This document shows, in pieces, positions 57,585 to 63,783 of a stretch of DNA of 64,000 bases. The DNA is taken from the NCBI GenBank assembly GCA_965200965.1, contig OZ241744.1, forward strand, positions 1,792,001 to 1,856,000, read 5' to 3'. The stretch's first letter is position 1, and each line of letters starts with the position of its first letter. Both the position numbers and the translations under genes were made by a program. Source of the stretch: an uncultured Candidatus Binatia bacterium (GTDB lineage Bacteria; Desulfobacterota; Binatia; Bin18). A model generated the notes under the pieces. That model made no database searches, was not told the DNA's origin, and saw only the letters and a program-made list of their open reading frames with translations.

Positions 57585-59393
57585 CTATTCAAGCCCGGAA
57601 GAGCGCGTCTCCTGACGCTGAGCCAACTCGGCAATTTTATCCCGCAGGCGCCGGCGCTGCTCGCTCCCGGTCGTCTGGTCCAGGGCCGCCCGATAGGTGC
57701 GGGACGCGTCGCTGAGCCTTCCGACCTTCTGGTAGGCGTCGCCCAGATGCTCGGTGATGGTCGGATCGTCGTTGACCAGCTCGACGGCCCGCTCTAAATA
57801 CTTGACGGCTTCGGGGTACTCTCCACGCTGGTAATACACCCAGCCCAGGCTGTCGATATAAAATCCGTCGTCGGGCTCGACCTTGAGCGCCCGGCGGATG
57901 AGATGCTCCGCCTCGTCAAGGCGTATCCCCTGTTCGGCCCAGGTATAGCCCAGGTAGTTCAGGGCCGCAGAATTCTCCGGGTTGAGGTCGATCGCTTTTT
58001 GCAGAGAGGCAACACAGCGGTCTTTATCTTTATGCTCGTCGTAGATCGCTCCCAGCGTGAAATGATAGGCATCATTGGTGGGGGCCAGGCTGATCATTCT
58101 TTTGAGAATTTCAATCGCCCGGGGGAGATTATCGTTCTCTCGCTCCAGGCTGGCCAGATATTCCATCACATCGAGGTCATCCTTCCTCACCCCCAGGGCG
58201 CGCTTGGCCTCGACAATGGCTTGGGCCAGGTTCTTCTGGCGCCGATAGATATAGCTCAGATGCAGACGCGCATCGGCGTAGTAGTCGGTATCATCCGGGA
58301 TCTTCAGCAACTCGGTGATAGCTTTGTCGTCTTCCTCGGCTTCGGTAAAAATGACGCCCAGGAAGTAGCGCGCCTGGGCGTTGTCGGGCTGGGCGGTCAA
58401 GACCAGATTCAGCTCGGTGACCGCCCGGTCGTACTCCCCTTTTTCGCTGTAAATCAGGCTGATGCGCAGCCGGGTGTCATGGGGGTCGGTCTGAATCCTC
58501 TCCTGGATTTTTTCTAACTCGCGAAACTGCTCCAGGGCACCGTCGAGATCTTTTTCCTCAAGAAATACGCGTCCCAGGCGTTTGCGCGCCTGCTCGCTGT
58601 CGGGGTTGTAGTCAAGCGCCTGCTGATAGGTGTCGCGGGCGCGGTCAAGCTGCTCTTGCATCTCATACACGAGCGCCAGGTCGAGCATTACCATTTCCGA
58701 GCGCTCGTTCAGCGCCAGGGCCTTTTTATAGTAGGTTTCGGCCGTGTCGAGCTGGCCGGCCGCGGCCGAAATCTGCCCCAGGTAATAATAGCCCAGCAAC
58801 GAACGCGGATAGCGATCGACCAGGATCGACAACACCTCAGCGGCTTTTTCAAAGTGCTGTTGCTTGGCGTACAAGGTCCCCAGATATAGATACGGTTCTT
58901 GACTATCGGGCTGCCGCTCAAGGACGGCCTCGTAGACCGCCGCGGCCTCGTCTTCCCGATGTGTTGAAGACAACAGACCGGCCAAAAACATCTGAGCCTC
59001 AACATTGTCGGGCTCCTGTTCAACAACGATCCGACAGTGTTGAAGGGCCAACTCGGTCTTGCCCATCCGAACATACAGCTTGGCCAGGCGAAGGCGTAAC
59101 AGGGCGGTATCAGGGTCCAGCTCAACCGCGCTGGCCAAGCTGCTGAGCGCCGTGTCATAGTCGCCGCGTGTCTGGGCCACGCTGCTCTTGAGAAAGTGGG
59201 CCGGGGCGCGTTCTTTAGCGGTCAGGGCGGTTGGGCTGCCCGGGATAGCGTCCACCGCGGACGCAAGGACGGAGGTGGACGGAGGGCGCGGCAGGGCCGG
59301 GCCGGCGGCTGCGCAGGCCGACAGCGCGAACATCCCACCATAAAGAAAACCGGAGAGCCAGGGGAGCGCTCTCAAGCGTGGCCGCCCAGACAT
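57585..59393 (-). CDS. TPR-repeat lipoprotein
   Basis: Lipobox LSAC; many TPRs; ALNYLGY..A, YIDSLGWVYY, EHLGDAY. Confidence 0.9.
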   Translation of the reverse strand: MSGRPRLRALPWLSGFLYGGMFALSACAAAGPALPRPPSTSVLASAVDAIPGSPTALTAKERAPAHFLKSSVAQTRGDYDTALSSLASAVELDPDTALLRLRLAKLYVRMGKTELALQHCRIVVEQEPDNVEAQMFLAGLLSSTHREDEAAAVYEAVLERQPDSQEPYLYLGTLYAKQQHFEKAAEVLSILVDRYPRSLLGYYYLGQISAAAGQLDTAETYYKKALALNERSEMVMLDLALVYEMQEQLDRARDTYQQALDYNPDSEQARKRLGRVFLEEKDLDGALEQFRELEKIQERIQTDPHDTRLRISLIYSEKGEYDRAVTELNLVLTAQPDNAQARYFLGVIFTEAEEDDKAITELLKIPDDTDYYADARLHLSYIYRRQKNLAQAIVEAKRALGVRKDDLDVMEYLASLERENDNLPRAIEILKRMISLAPTNDAYHFTLGAIYDEHKDKDRCVASLQKAIDLNPENSAALNYLGYTWAEQGIRLDEAEHLIRRALKVEPDDGFYIDSLGWVYYQRGEYPEAVKYLERAVELVNDDPTITEHLGDAYQKVGRLSDASRTYRAALDQTTGSEQRRRLRDKIAELAQRQETRSSGLE

Positions 59394-59502
59394 GGCCAGA
59401 GCGTATCACGCGCGAAAAGAAATGGTCAATCAGCAAAGGCCGGCCCAGAGTCGCAACTTGCTCTCCCGGTCGGGGGATTATAGGTTGTCCCTGGAGCCTG
59501 AA

Positions 59503-60534
59503 GTGTGCGTAGACATCCCCTCAACCCCACAGCAGATCAGACAAGCGGCCTATGACCTGGACCGGATGTTTTCTCTGCGTGAGGCCGTCACCAGCCTGGA
59601 CCCCAGCGGTCCGCCCCGGGTACGGATGATTTCGTCCGAACCCATCCAAGCCTGCCGCCGAGTCGGTATTCTGTGCGGCTCGTTTAATCCCCTCACCCTG
59701 GCCCACAGCCAGCTGGCCGAACAGGTCTGCCAGACTTGGCAGCTTGACCGGGTGTTCCTGAGCCTGGCCACACGCACCGTTGATAAAGAACAGGTGACCG
59801 GCCTAGGGCTTGAGGATCGCCTGGCACTGCTGTGCCTCTACGCCGCCGGCCGGCCGTCAATGAGTGTGGCGCTGCTTAACCGCGGCTTGTACATCGAACA
59901 GGCCCGGGCCTTTCGCCGCCTGTTGGGAGCAGACACCGAGCTGTGTTTCCTGACCGGGATGGACAAACTAACCCAGATTCTTGACCCCCGCTATTACCAG
60001 GAAAGAGATGCCGCCCTCGGCGAACTGTTCGGCCTAGCCTGTCTGATCGTGGCGAATCGGGGCGATCTGGACCACACCGCTTTCCACCAATTGCTGGCCC
60101 AGCCGGAAAATCGGGCCTTTGGTCCGGCCGTCCATTTTTTTCCCCTGGCCGCGGCGACGAGTGCGATCAAGGACCTGTCGGCCACCGCCATTCGAGACGC
60201 GCTGGCAGCCGGCCGTTCAATTGGTGAGCATGTCCCGGCCGAAACGGCCCACTACCTGAACGAAACTCGTGCCTACCTTCCGGCCGAACTGCGAGCCGGA
60301 GAAGCCGTAGACGCCTACGCTATCCGGCTGGCACTCCTCCGGCTGCTGTACCGCGCTCGCCCCCGGGTCCAGCCCGATTTTCAGCGGCTGATGCGGACTG
60401 CCCTGACGACGAGCCCACAGGGACGGCTCCTCCGCCGGGCGTGTGCCGAGCCGTCTCCCAAGGCGGCTGTCGCGCTGTTACGCGCGTGCCTTGACCGGCC
60501 AGTGCTCCCCGTGGGTGAGGGTGGTTCGGGCTAG
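59503..60534 (+). CDS. Nucleotidyltransferase, NadD/NMNAT-like
   Basis: GSFNPLTLAH, GMDK, SAT.IR motifs; GTG start after GGAG (uncertain). Confidence 0.7.
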   Translation: MCVDIPSTPQQIRQAAYDLDRMFSLREAVTSLDPSGPPRVRMISSEPIQACRRVGILCGSFNPLTLAHSQLAEQVCQTWQLDRVFLSLATRTVDKEQVTGLGLEDRLALLCLYAAGRPSMSVALLNRGLYIEQARAFRRLLGADTELCFLTGMDKLTQILDPRYYQERDAALGELFGLACLIVANRGDLDHTAFHQLLAQPENRAFGPAVHFFPLAAATSAIKDLSATAIRDALAAGRSIGEHVPAETAHYLNETRAYLPAELRAGEAVDAYAIRLALLRLLYRARPRVQPDFQRLMRTALTTSPQGRLLRRACAEPSPKAAVALLRACLDRPVLPVGEGGSG

Positions 60535-60610
60535 CCGCTGTAGGGTCATGATGCTAGCCTGTGGACGGTCCGAGGGTCCGATCCAGCTTGTCCGAAGGAG
60601 GCAGGAGCGT

Positions 60611-61588
60611 ATGAGCAGTCAGCCGGTGACCGACTTTCTCAAGCACCACTTCCGCCATTTTAATGCGGCCAGCCTGATTGCGGCATCAGACGGCTATAGG
60701 CGACATATTGACCGGGGCGGAAAGATGCTGCTGACCATGGCCGGCGCTATGAGTACGGCGGAAATCGGGCTGTCTCTGGCCGAGATGATCCGTCAAGACT
60801 GCGTACACGCCATATCCTGCACCGGGGCGAACCTTGAAGAGGATGTTTTTAACCTGGTTGCCCATGACAACTATGAACGCGTCCCCCACTACCGCGACCT
60901 CACCCCGGCTCAGGAGGCCGACCTGCTCAATCGACATCTGAACCGGGTCACCGACACCTGCATCCCTGAGGATGAGGCCATGCGGCGAGTAGAAGCGGCC
61001 ATCCTCGAGGTGTGGCTTGAGGCCGAACAGCGGGGCGAGCGCTACTTTCCACACGAATATTTTTATCAGATTTTACGCTCCGGCGCGTTGCGGGCCTCCT
61101 ACCAGATTGATCCCAAAGACTCGTGGCTGATGGCCGCCACCGAGAAAAATCTGCCTATCGTCGTGCCGGGCTGGGAAGATTCAACCACCGGCAATGTGTT
61201 TGCCAGCCATTGTATAACGGGCACCCTCAAAAGTCCCCAAACGGTCCGCAACGGCACCGAGTACATGACCTTTCTGGCCGGGTGGTATGAGGAGGTGTGC
61301 CGGACGAGCCCGGTCGGCTTTTATCAGATCGGCGGGGGGATTGCCGGCGATTTCCCGATTTGTGTCGTCCCGATGCTCATCCAGGACCTGCGCCATGCTC
61401 AGACCCCGCTGTGGAGCTATTTCTGTCAGGTCAGCGATTCGACAACCAGCTATGGCTCGTATTCGGGAGCGGTACCAAATGAAAAAATCACCTGGGGCAA
61501 ACTCGGGGTAGAGACGCCGCGCTATATCATCGAATCTGACGCGTCGATCGTCGCCCCGCTCATGTTTGCCTATGTGTTAGGGATGTAA
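60611..61588 (+). CDS. Deoxyhypusine synthase family protein
   Basis: AGAMSTAE, CTGANLEED, PGWEDST, IGGGIAGDF, GSYSGA.PNEKITWGK, ESDAS. Confidence 0.9.
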   Translation: MSSQPVTDFLKHHFRHFNAASLIAASDGYRRHIDRGGKMLLTMAGAMSTAEIGLSLAEMIRQDCVHAISCTGANLEEDVFNLVAHDNYERVPHYRDLTPAQEADLLNRHLNRVTDTCIPEDEAMRRVEAAILEVWLEAEQRGERYFPHEYFYQILRSGALRASYQIDPKDSWLMAATEKNLPIVVPGWEDSTTGNVFASHCITGTLKSPQTVRNGTEYMTFLAGWYEEVCRTSPVGFYQIGGGIAGDFPICVVPMLIQDLRHAQTPLWSYFCQVSDSTTSYGSYSGAVPNEKITWGKLGVETPRYIIESDASIVAPLMFAYVLGM

Positions 61589-61594
61589 GGGCCG

Positions 61595-62428
61595 ATGACA
61601 GACCGCCTGGACCGCGAAAAAACCACGGCCATGTCCGCCGCCCGGGCGGCTGGCGCGCGTATTCGGGCGGTGTATGAGACGAACTATCGCGTCGATTACA
61701 AACACAACGACAGCCCGGTCACCGTTGCCGACCGCGAGGCCAACCACAAGATCCACCAGATTATCCACCAGGCCTTTCCGCACGACGGCTGGTTATCGGA
61801 AGAAACCACCGATTCCCCGGCCCGGCTGTCCAAACGCCGCGTGTGGGTTGTTGACCCGCTTGACGGGACCAAAGAGTTCATTGACAAAATCCCCGAGTTC
61901 GCCGTTTCGATCGGCCTGACTGAGGACGGTTGGCCTATCCTGGGCGTCATCTACTACCCGGCCCTGGACGAGTTGGTGTGGGCCGCGCGCGGCAGGGGAG
62001 CCTGGCACCGAACGAGTACAGCCGGAGAGACGCCGCTGCGCGTCAGCCCGACCGGGCGTTTGGTCAATGCAACGGTGTTGTCCAGCCGCTCAGAAACAAA
62101 ACGGGGCGAATGGAAGCCGTTTCGGTCCTTTTTTCACGCTCGACCGGCGGGCGGGATGGCCCATAAGCTGGCCATGATTGCCAAGGGCGAGGCTGACGCG
62201 ACCTTCACCCTCGTGCCAAAGAATGAGTGGGATGTGTGCGCCGGTGCTGTGCTGATCGAAGAGGCCGGCGGCACCCTCACCACACTGGGCGGCAAACCGG
62301 TGCGCTTCAACCAGGCTACCACCCTGCTCCAGGGGCTGGTGGCCAGCAACAGACTCCTCCATCCGCAACTCATGGCCGTGGTGACGCCCCACCTCAAAGA
62401 GCGCCACCAGACGGAAAAGCGTCGCTGA
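61595..62428 (+). CDS. cysQ: 3'(2'),5'-bisphosphate nucleotidase / inositol monophosphatase family
   Basis: SPVT.AD, LSEE, WVVDPLDGTKEF, SRS, EWDVCAG. Confidence 0.8.
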   Translation: MTDRLDREKTTAMSAARAAGARIRAVYETNYRVDYKHNDSPVTVADREANHKIHQIIHQAFPHDGWLSEETTDSPARLSKRRVWVVDPLDGTKEFIDKIPEFAVSIGLTEDGWPILGVIYYPALDELVWAARGRGAWHRTSTAGETPLRVSPTGRLVNATVLSSRSETKRGEWKPFRSFFHARPAGGMAHKLAMIAKGEADATFTLVPKNEWDVCAGAVLIEEAGGTLTTLGGKPVRFNQATTLLQGLVASNRLLHPQLMAVVTPHLKERHQTEKRR

Positions 62429-62508: not shown

Positions 62509-62727
62509 ATGGCTCAGTTCGCCAGCCTTTTTCAGGGACATCCAAAGCCCCGCTGCCCGGCCTGCCACAAGTGGAACCGGGTGTATGTGACCGGCGGCTC
62601 GTTTCTGTCCGAATGTGTCTACTGTGGCGCGGCGCTCGATCGTTACCGGGCACCGGCTTGGCGGATCGGGGTTATTCTTGCCGCCAGCGCACTCGCCCTG
62701 GCCGCAATCCCCCTCCTCGCCCGCTAG
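62509..62727 (+). CDS. Small protein with a CxxC...CxxC Zn ribbon and a C-terminal TM helix
   Basis: AGGAG RBS; CPAC...CVYC; hydrophobic tail; 72 aa. Confidence 0.6.
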   Translation: MAQFASLFQGHPKPRCPACHKWNRVYVTGGSFLSECVYCGAALDRYRAPAWRIGVILAASALALAAIPLLAR

Positions 62728-63551
62728 TCCTTTTCGAGCGGCAGATCTTCCCGATTGCCCCACTCGGCCCACGAGGCATCATAGTTCCGCACCGTGTCAA
62801 AACCGACCAAGCGCAGGCTGAAGAGTCCGTGCGCCGCACGGATCCCCCCCTGTCAATAGGTGATAACTTCTGATTCAGGGGTGATGCCGGCCTCGGCAAA
62901 CATGGCCCGCAGATGGGAGGCCGGCTTGAACTTTTTGGTCTGGCTGTCAACACAGTTCAGCCATTCCAGGTGAACGGCACCGGGGATACGTCCCCCCCGC
63001 TTGGTGCCCCGTGCGTTCTCCCCGGTCCATTCGCCGTCGGAGCGGACATCAAGCAGCACCCGGCCGGGCTGCGCGATCGCGGCCCGGACATACTCCCAGC
63101 GGGCAAGCAACTCCTCGCGCACCCGTGGGCGAAAGCGTGCCGCGGCCCGCCTAGCCGGCGCATTCGTCAGCGGCCATCCCTCGGCTAACCAGGCGTCCCA
63201 GCCGCCGTTGAGAACCGCGGCCTTGGTGTGGCCATAATAATTGAGTGCCCACCACAGACGGGTGGCATACAGGCCACTAAATCCGTCGTAGGCAACCACC
63301 AGGGTATCGTCCCCGATCCCCAGCCCCCCCACGGTCTCGGCAAACTGCTCGGGCCCCATGATGTGCGGCGCGCCCTCTTTTTCTTTGAGATAATGGTGGC
63401 CGCGAAACGTCAGCGCCCCAGGAATATGCGCCCGGCGGTAAGCCTCACGGTTATCACAGTCCACGATACACAGCTTGGCGTCTTGGAGATGCTCGGCCAG
63501 CCAGTCGGTCTCAACCAGCATCTCCGGCCGACTATAGTTCTGGTCTGCCAT
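62724..63551 (-). CDS. Tandem-rhodanese sulfurtransferase (SseA/TST-like), predicted selenoprotein with Sec at codon 233
   Basis: HIPGA, ATRLWW.L, LNGG..AW, DVRS..EW.G, GRIPGA; TGA at 62855-62853 in VITY-U-QGGIRA; the frame continues to the rhodanese signature NYDASWAEWG and TAG at 62726-62724. Confidence 0.9.
62820..62852 (-). promoter_or_regulatory. Putative bacterial SECIS element
   Basis: Immediately 3' of UGA: CAGGGGGGGA-UCCGUGC-GGC-GCACGGA-CUCUUC; 7-bp stem starting at +11, loop starting with G at +18. Confidence 0.75.
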
Positions 63552-63783
63552 ACTCCGCTCTCCTTCGTGTTTCTTTTGGAATCGCGTCACAAATCACCAC
63601 CTGCTCGCCGTGCTGTAGCAAGTGGCACTAAATGCCGGCCCAGAAATCCTGTTCCGTGCGTACTCAAAATTGCCATGCTCTTGTCTTCCTGTGGCGTTTC
63701 TGCTCTTTACCATAGCCGGCCCCTGGCCGGCCAGCGGGAGATGTCGTAGACAAGCGGCGTCGGGTGTGAGGGAGGCAGCGCTT

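What the first reader, a model, noticed from the sequence alone, without database searches (positions are those of the whole stretch)
62724..63551. Hidden selenoprotein: sulfurtransferase with UGA at the catalytic cysteine and a SECIS-like hairpin
Seen: the ORF track stops at VITY*, but the frame continues QGGIRAAHGLFSLRLVGFDTVRNYDASWAEWGNREDLPLEKD*, a complete rhodanese C-terminus. The TGA occupies the Cys of the C-x-x-G-x-R active-site loop. A hairpin UCCGUGC-GGC-GCACGGA starts at +11 with a G-led loop at +18, extendable by GGGGA/UCUUC. Known: this fits the bacterial SECIS layout, and Sec-containing rhodaneses have been predicted in some bacteria but are little characterised. Inference: a 275-aa Sec233 sulfur/selenium transferase that pipelines would miscall as truncated.
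Basis: partly seen in the sequence, partly recalled or inferred. Interest (0 to 1): 0.78.

Follow-up and report, generated by a model that had tools for sequence, protein, structure and literature searches.

The report
Selenocysteine rhodanese with conserved recoding hairpin
The apparent early stop codon in this bacterial sulfur-transfer enzyme gene very likely encodes selenocysteine at the catalytic site; this kind of selenoprotein has been predicted since 2005, so the find is correct but ordinary, though public gene calls cut the protein short.

Summary
Confirmed, on the minus strand (63551→62724). Reading TGA as Sec gives a 275-aa tandem rhodanese with U233 at the catalytic cysteine position. 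The genome has selA, selB, selC and selD. TGA stands at this site in 71 of the 80 best GTDB loci; the other 9 have Cys. The inner hairpin with its G-led loop is intact in 71 of 71 TGA loci and 0 of 9 Cys loci. Across 25 orthologues only 7 of 107 residue-invariant degenerate codons are frozen: the six hairpin codons and the codon before TGA. The genome's selD has a matching GGC loop at +18. The public protein collection holds only the 232-aa truncation. Close relatives are mostly Candidatus Binatia; more distant ones are Dehalococcoidia. The family is known: COG2897 Sec-rhodanese (Sargasso Sea, 2005), listed as predicted, not verified, in a 2026 review. This scan reported it on other genomes eight times. 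Likely a sulfane-sulfur transferase working through a Sec-Se-S intermediate; substrate untested. Real, ordinary, biochemically uncharacterised.

The parts
62724..63551 (-). Gene for a 275-aa tandem-domain rhodanese (SseA/COG2897 type) with in-frame TGA at codon 233 and a TAG stop
   Evidence: Translation with TGA=U; two Pfam Rhodanese stretches; full-length match to T. thermophilus rhodanese 1UAR, E 2.7e-45; AlphaFold pLDDT 95.7, TM 0.91 to 1UAR
62853..62855 (-). UGA codon 233, predicted selenocysteine, first residue of the active-site loop U-Q-G-G-I-R
   Evidence: Aligns with the Cys of YCRIAER in 1UAR; TGA in 71 of 80 GTDB loci, TGC/TGT in the other 9
62826..62842 (-). Predicted bacterial SECIS core: 7-bp stem with GGC triloop at +18 to +20, inside codons 237-242 (IRAAHG)
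   Evidence: Fold; codons 237-242 invariant in 25 of 25 orthologues; inner 5 bp plus G18 in 71 of 71 TGA loci and 0 of 9 Cys loci, one compensatory G-C to U-A change
62820..62847 (-). Possible lower-stem extension (GGGGA/UCUUC) in this genome; not conserved
   Evidence: Folds here at -14.2 kcal/mol; all 5 pairs in only 8 of 71 TGA loci
62727..62852 (-). 42 codons after the UGA that finish the C-terminal rhodanese domain and are lost in public gene calls
   Evidence: 41-42 residues follow the TGA in 25 of 25 orthologues, with free synonymous change outside the hairpin; only the 232-aa product is in the collection
63560..63565 (-). Shine-Dalgarno-like AAGGAG 8 nt before the ATG
   Evidence: Sequence; orthologues align from the same Met

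Best explanation
This gene encodes a two-domain rhodanese whose UGA codon 233 is very likely read as selenocysteine, and the enzyme likely moves sulfane sulfur from a donor to a thiol acceptor through a Sec-bound Se-S intermediate. Recoding (inferred from established bacterial Sec biology): SelB loaded with Sec-tRNA(Sec) binds the GGC-loop hairpin just after the UGA and delivers Sec, and translation continues 42 codons to TAG. Shown here: the machinery, the hairpin, and its strict coupling to TGA. Catalysis (inferred from the rhodanese double-displacement mechanism): Sec233 opens the six-residue loop of the C-terminal domain, takes a sulfur atom from the donor and hands it to an acceptor such as thioredoxin, a small thiol, sulfite or cyanide. 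The N-terminal domain has Asp89 at the matching loop position and is likely non-catalytic (recalled pattern). The loop UQGGIR lacks the basic pair of the human TST motif CRKGVT, so a persulfide, polysulfide or 3-mercaptopyruvate-like donor is somewhat more likely than thiosulfate (weak inference). The genome also keeps a 41%-identical Cys paralogue with loop CAVGIR. Odds by step: Sec decoding about 0.97; sulfur transfer as the main job about 0.75.
For: selA 581.8 bits vs cut-off 267.9, selB 366.5 vs 242.25, selD 396.3 vs 125 with its own in-frame TGA, tRNA-Sec 72 vs 47 bits with UCA anticodon. 25 of 41 genomes searched carry the TGA form, and all 25 have selA over the cut-off (four of these matches are partial, one with an internal TAG). 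Codon freezing is confined to codons 232 and 237-242. Hairpin in 71 of 71 TGA loci vs 0 of 9 Cys loci, including 24 TGA loci under 60% identity. selD in the same genome has GGUCC-GGC-GGACC with the loop at +18. The element meets all four constraints of the published bacterial SECIS model. Fold TM 0.91 to 1UAR. Mechanism as described in PMC9369223.
Against: No direct evidence of Se incorporation or of activity; the 2026 review lists the family under 'predicted'. The hairpin is so invariant that covariation is nearly absent (one compensatory pair), so pairing is inferred from folding and conservation. Below the cut-off of every NCBIfam equivalog (best: PRK11493, 147 vs 250 bits), so no substrate can be assigned. 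No conserved sulfur-pathway operon in the neighbours.
Confidence: 0.75

Rival explanations
1. It is a true selenoprotein, but its main job is selenium handling: it carries or detoxifies Se (a Sec-Se-Se adduct from selenite or selenide) and may feed SelD.
For: Cys rhodaneses bind Se 1:1 as a perselenide in vitro (PMC9369223). Weak match to the selenite/tellurite operon rhodanese ExtH (61 vs cut-off 200 bits).
Against: Not linked to the sel genes: selA/selC are about 130 kb away and selB/selD about 1.4 Mb away. No Se-pathway genes among the 46 neighbours scanned. The Cys paralogue matches ExtH about equally (69 bits).
Confidence: 0.12
2. It is a true selenoprotein, but Sec has turned it into a redox enzyme (persulfide or polysulfide reductase, or thioredoxin-coupled) rather than a group-transfer enzyme.
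For: Most predicted selenoproteins are thought to be redox enzymes. The Sec form is kept across two phyla, beside a Cys paralogue in this genome, which suggests a Sec-specific advantage.
Against: No second redox Cys near the active site: the only invariant C/U in the 45-sequence alignment is position 233. Fold and loop are those of ordinary sulfurtransferases. This reading overlaps the best explanation when thioredoxin is the acceptor.
Confidence: 0.1
3. The TGA is a real stop: the gene is a pseudogene or makes a truncated, inactive 232-aa protein.
For: Gene callers stop there. TGA is the commonest stop after long open frames in this genome (386 of 691).
Against: The 41-42 downstream residues are conserved with free synonymous change in 25 of 25 orthologues. 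The same TGA occurs in 71 of 80 loci from several lineages. The hairpin tracks the TGA.
Confidence: 0.02
4. The organism reads UGA as Trp or Gly genome-wide (code 4 or 25), or the TGA is an assembly error.
For: An in-frame TGA in a conserved gene.
Against: TGA ends 386 of 691 long open frames. tRNA-Trp has a CCA anticodon and the UCA tRNA is tRNA-Sec. Trp261 and Trp264 are TGG in 25 of 25 orthologues. Homologues have Cys, not Trp, at this site. Contigs of public runs carry the same bases.
Confidence: 0.01

Closest known systems
Predicted selenoprotein family 'Rhodanese-related sulfurtransferase', COG2897/SseA. [quoted passage not shown]
   Same: SseA-type rhodanese, one Sec, UxxG motif (U-Q-G-G), Cys homologues widespread, bacterial SECIS downstream.
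   Different: I could not fetch the published representative sequences (MQG53192.1, MCY3690685.1, AACY01016424), so identity to them is untested. 'Binat' does not occur in the 2026 review text, and Binatota plus selenocysteine gave 1 paper, on methane cycling by its listing. BSepDB did screen Binatia genomes (11 rows in the stored part of its Table S1), so such members may already be in that database.
Cys tandem rhodaneses with solved structures: T. thermophilus rhodanese 1UAR, M. tuberculosis SseA/CysA2/CysA3, A. vinelandii RhdA 1E0C, bovine and human TST, MPST, E. coli SseA
   Same: Two-domain fold, TM 0.82-0.91; catalytic residue at the same loop position.
   Different: Sec instead of Cys. 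Loop UQGGIR against CRIAER (1UAR) and CRKGVT (human TST). About 24-35% identity; below the MPST equivalog cut-off.
Other Sec-rhodanese families: ExtH (NF040901) and rhodanese_LYCAU (NF041203, CxU)
   Same: Rhodanese domains; NF041203 is described as a (seleno)protein family.
   Different: Far below both cut-offs (61 vs 200 and 31 vs 115 bits); different length and motif. Not a member.
Bacterial SECIS consensus model (as summarised in PMC13188914)
   Same: 3-nt loop, 7-bp stem, GG at the loop start, 17 nt between UGA and loop, -9.9 kcal/mol.
   Different: [quoted passage not shown]

Membership tests
Bacterial selenoprotein gene | In-frame UGA aligned to Cys in homologues | tested here: met
   Aligns to the catalytic Cys of 1UAR; 71 TGA and 9 Cys among 80 loci
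Bacterial selenoprotein gene | selA, selB, selC and selD in the genome | tested here: met
   All four over their curated cut-offs
Bacterial selenoprotein gene | SECIS: 3-9 nt loop, 4-16 bp stem, G in the first two loop positions, 16-37 nt from UGA, MFE at or below -7.5 | tested here: met
   3-nt loop GGC, 7 bp, 17 nt, -9.9 kcal/mol (model); conserved only with TGA
Bacterial selenoprotein gene | Coding conservation continues past the UGA | tested here: met
   41-42 conserved residues with synonymous variation in 25 of 25 orthologues
Bacterial selenoprotein gene | Selenium actually incorporated at the UGA | not testable with these tools
   Needs 75Se labelling or mass spectrometry
Tandem-domain rhodanese (SseA/COG2897, TST/MPST fold) | Two rhodanese domains, catalytic loop in the C-terminal domain | tested here: met
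   Two PF00581 stretches; TM 0.91 over 278 columns to 1UAR; alignment
Tandem-domain rhodanese (SseA/COG2897, TST/MPST fold) | Sulfurtransferase activity | not testable with these tools
   Needs an assay
Sec-rhodanese 'form 4' / COG2897 (Sargasso Sea 2005) | PF00581, single Sec, UxxG motif | tested here: met
   U-Q-G-G, one TGA; definition
Sec-rhodanese 'form 4' / COG2897 (Sargasso Sea 2005) | Sequence grouping with the published representatives | not testable with these tools
   The accessions named could not be fetched and figures are not held; 'form 2' also has UxxG but is COG0607 type
3-mercaptopyruvate sulfurtransferase equivalog PRK11493 | Score above the curated cut-off | tested here: not met
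   147 vs 250 bits
ExtH (NF040901) / rhodanese_LYCAU (NF041203) | Score above the curated cut-off | tested here: not met
   61 vs 200 and 31 vs 115 bits

The most novel reading that the evidence does not exclude
This widespread Binatia-Dehalococcoidia clade may be a sulfurtransferase family whose natural chemistry runs through a selenenyl-sulfide (Sec-Se-S) intermediate with a donor or rate that Cys rhodaneses cannot match, for example fast turnover of persulfides or polysulfides. Its SECIS core is identical across two phyla and also encodes the active-site helix, which would make it a clean natural Sec/Cys pair for testing what selenium adds to sulfur-transfer catalysis.
Probability: 0.2. Interest if true: 0.55.

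Novelty: new member of a known kind. Interest (0 to 1): 0.24.

Why it matters
Practically, a lineage-wide enzyme is recorded without its catalytic residue and last 42 residues, so metabolic reconstructions of Binatia would treat an active sulfurtransferase as broken. Scientifically, the Sec-rhodanese type has been on the predicted list since 2005 and was still listed as predicted in the 2026 review. This clade has close natural Cys counterparts with the same QGGIR loop, so the question of what Sec does for a rhodanese is directly testable. None of this would surprise a selenoprotein specialist, and the scan has already reported the same thing from eight other genomes.

Tried and rejected
Hairpin stability as proof: z only -1.2 to -2.4, and 0.7% of all TGA triplets have a comparable hairpin; rejected as stand-alone evidence. 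Lower-stem extension as part of the SECIS: not conserved. Invariant TAT before the UGA as a required signal: 25 of 25 in close orthologues but 61 TAT, 9 TAC and 1 CAT among 71 TGA loci; left open. Operon clue to the substrate: the gene faces a convergent neighbour and a divergent one. Shared neighbours (CysQ/inositol-monophosphatase-like, deoxyhypusine synthase-like, LLM oxidoreductase, epimerase) recur only among the close, mostly Binatia, loci, and the Dehalococcoidia neighbours differ (46 of 99 called neighbour ORFs from 16 loci were scanned). Expression: RNA-library contigs of a relative about 89% identical bridge the UGA in 4 of 4 runs, but they come from one study, are contigs without strand, and DNA carry-over was not excluded; not counted as evidence. 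Direction of Sec/Cys change: the tree (54 rows, close loci thinned to 14 plus the window's, rows under 240 aa dropped) needs 3-5 changes, with two Cys Tepidiformaceae rows nested among Sec rows (95/86), but it has no firm root and I ran no clade test. Genome-wide selenoprotein scan by hairpin and codon bias: noisy, and it missed selD among the top 45; only hits confirmed by family searches are used. Literature: five searches listed no experimental study of a Sec-containing tandem rhodanese; the library lacks most subscription journals. deep-Sep (PMC12013277) contains none of the four terms searched.

Full report
Observation. The feature is on the minus strand. Window 63551→62724 read with TGA=U gives 275 residues with a single recoded step, U233, and a TAG stop; the plus strand gives no such protein. 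The table-11 ORF ends at VITY*. An AAGGAG lies 8 nt before the ATG. Taken alone the hairpin is unremarkable: z-scores are -1.19, -1.95 and -2.37 for three cuts, and 780 of 113,011 TGA triplets in the genome have a similar stem and loop.

The protein. Pfam finds two rhodanese stretches. The best solved relative is T. thermophilus rhodanese 1UAR (E 2.7e-45), whose YCRIAER loop aligns with YUQGGIR. An AlphaFold model from 45 sequences has mean pLDDT 95.7 and TM 0.91 to 1UAR; Sec was modelled as Cys. No NCBIfam equivalog cut-off is reached (MPST 147 vs 250; ExtH 61 vs 200; LYCAU 31 vs 115). The genome holds a second, 41%-identical rhodanese with Cys, loop CAVGIR.

Machinery. The single 3.62-Mb contig (99.3% complete, 5.74% contamination) has tRNA-Sec, selA, selB and selD, which itself has an in-frame TGA. 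TGA is otherwise a normal stop: it ends 386 of 691 open frames of 500 or more codons, and tRNA-Trp is CCA.

Orthologues. Of 41 genomes searched (own plus 40 relatives), 25 carry a TGA form: this genome, 23 of 24 others in its family, and 1 of 1 in another family of the order. The miss, G023, is 84% complete in 1,250 contigs and gave only distant matches of 36-38% identity. All 25 have selA over the cut-off; four of those matches are partial and one has an internal TAG. Of 31 loci inspected, 25 have TGA at position 233 and 6 distant ones have Cys. In a codon alignment of the 25, 107 columns have an invariant, degenerately coded residue, and the codon is frozen in only 7: Tyr232 and Ile237-Gly242, which are the hairpin; the neighbouring Gly235 and Gly236 use 4 and 3 codons. 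The frame runs 41-42 residues past the TGA in all 25. A GTDB scan found 336 relatives and returned the best 80; some are the same genomes as, and kin are not independent. The close ones are mostly titled Candidatus Binatia (some carry other record titles), and those at 48-56% are mostly Dehalococcoidia. 71 have TGA and 9 have Cys. The inner five pairs plus G18 hold in 71 of 71 TGA loci and 0 of 9 Cys loci, although the Cys loci share the same QGGIR or QAGIR loop. The core 15-mer is exact in 69 of 71, including 22 of 24 under 60% identity. L122 swaps G16-C22 for U-A, changing two residues to do so.

Internal control. The genome's selD has GGUCC-GGC-GGACC with the loop also at +18. Three UGSC-family genes with a TGA (one just under the cut-off) and a GrdB-like UxxC gene have G-led loops at about +19 to +20.

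Annotation. The 232-aa truncation is in the public collection (NCBI, Logan, ENA); the full-length sequence, looked up with C for U, is not; the 15 listed members of the 50-member cluster are 220-232 aa. Contigs of runs X5, X6 and X7 span the whole stretch with 0-1 differences, none at the TGA; they may be this DNA's source.

How it most likely works. Recoding by SelB, Sec-tRNA and the hairpin is inferred from established bacterial Sec biology; machinery, hairpin and coupling are shown. Catalysis is inferred from the rhodanese double-displacement mechanism (PMC9369223, passages): Sec233 would take sulfane sulfur from a donor as a Se-S adduct and pass it to a thiophilic acceptor. That review ties thiosulfate preference to the basic residues of CRKGVT, which UQGGIR lacks, so a persulfide, polysulfide or mercaptopyruvate-type donor is a weak preference. 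Neighbours give no pathway. Rivals: selenium carrier (0.12), redox enzyme (0.10), true stop (0.02), other code or error (0.01).

Comparison with what is known. PMC1088965 (passages and table text; figures not held) lists three COG2897 rhodanese-related sulfurtransferases among the new Sargasso Sea selenoproteins, with a predicted SECIS. PMC1976440 and PMC2398784 (passages) list the family again. PMC9312934 (passages) gives it as COG2897 SseA. PMC13188914 (passages) gives 'form 4, PF00581, UxxG', which falls after the heading 'Predicted with high confidence', and states the SECIS constraints, all met here. PMC13326102 (passages; one supplement, cut when stored) screened 64,762 genomes including Binatia; its gene lists are on a website that I could not see and may already hold such members. 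I could not compare with the published representative sequences, so membership rests on domain, motif and Sec position. Five literature searches (listings only for papers not named above) showed no experimental study of such an enzyme. Eight earlier scan notes on other genomes reach the same verdict; they are not independent support, and I tested their two leads (database truncation, 2026 review) myself.

Verdict. A real and very likely selenocysteine-containing tandem rhodanese, well supported by comparative evidence, and a new member of a family predicted two decades ago. Interest 0.24. What remains open is biochemical: the substrate, and what selenium adds.

Noticed in passing
G000:C1:2189740-2190381 (+), 666291-666848 (-), 2801916-2802350 (-): Three UGSC-family (NF041046) genes, each with an in-frame TGA and a G-led hairpin; one scores just under the cut-off. 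Further hidden selenoproteins in this genome.
   Followed up: partly
G000:C1:3479723-3480715 (+): GrdB-like (PF07355) gene with an in-frame TGA in a UxxC motif and an 8-bp hairpin with GUG loop at +19. A second PF07355 match at 981195-981551 (-) was not inspected.
   Followed up: partly
G000:C1:3224694-3227707 and 1720603-1722075: selB lies just before selD (itself with TGA); selA and selC are adjacent on opposite strands.
   Followed up: yes
L062:5845-6726, L059:5798-6757, L061:5837-6715, L088:5836-6687 (+): A gene of about 290 aa with a signal-peptide-like start and no Pfam or NCBIfam family over cut-off directly follows the Sec-rhodanese gene on the same strand; its ORF cluster covers 40 of 81 loci. 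It is not at this locus and was not found in G000 with one query.
   Followed up: partly
window 62808-62862: In the public runs laid, many other contigs match only the UGA-plus-hairpin stretch and continue as other rhodanese-like sequence, raising summed depth there far above the flanks. Related Sec-rhodaneses appear to be common in those communities.
   Followed up: no
G015:C21:87024-87836: A second TGA-containing copy at 57% identity in one relative, possibly a duplicate or an acquired copy; bin contamination is 10%.
   Followed up: no
L125:4077-4805: A second rhodanese gene lies directly upstream of the Sec-rhodanese gene in a Dehalococcoidia locus; whether it also has a UGA was not checked.
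   Followed up: no
window 62509-62727 (+): A 72-aa ORF with two CxxC motifs and a hydrophobic C-terminus, converging on and overlapping the rhodanese stop by 4 nt; no Pfam or NCBIfam hit; conserved in RNA-library contigs of a relative.
   Followed up: partly
window 59392-62428 (+): NadD-like, deoxyhypusine-synthase-like and CysQ/inositol-monophosphatase-like genes, all below equivalog cut-offs, recur downstream of the rhodanese in 31-38 of 81 loci.
   Followed up: partly
L060, L063, L085, L089-L091, L095: Records titled 'uncultured Enterobacteriaceae' carry 67-76%-identical copies; the two put in the tree fall among Binatia rows. The record titles are probably wrong.
   Followed up: no
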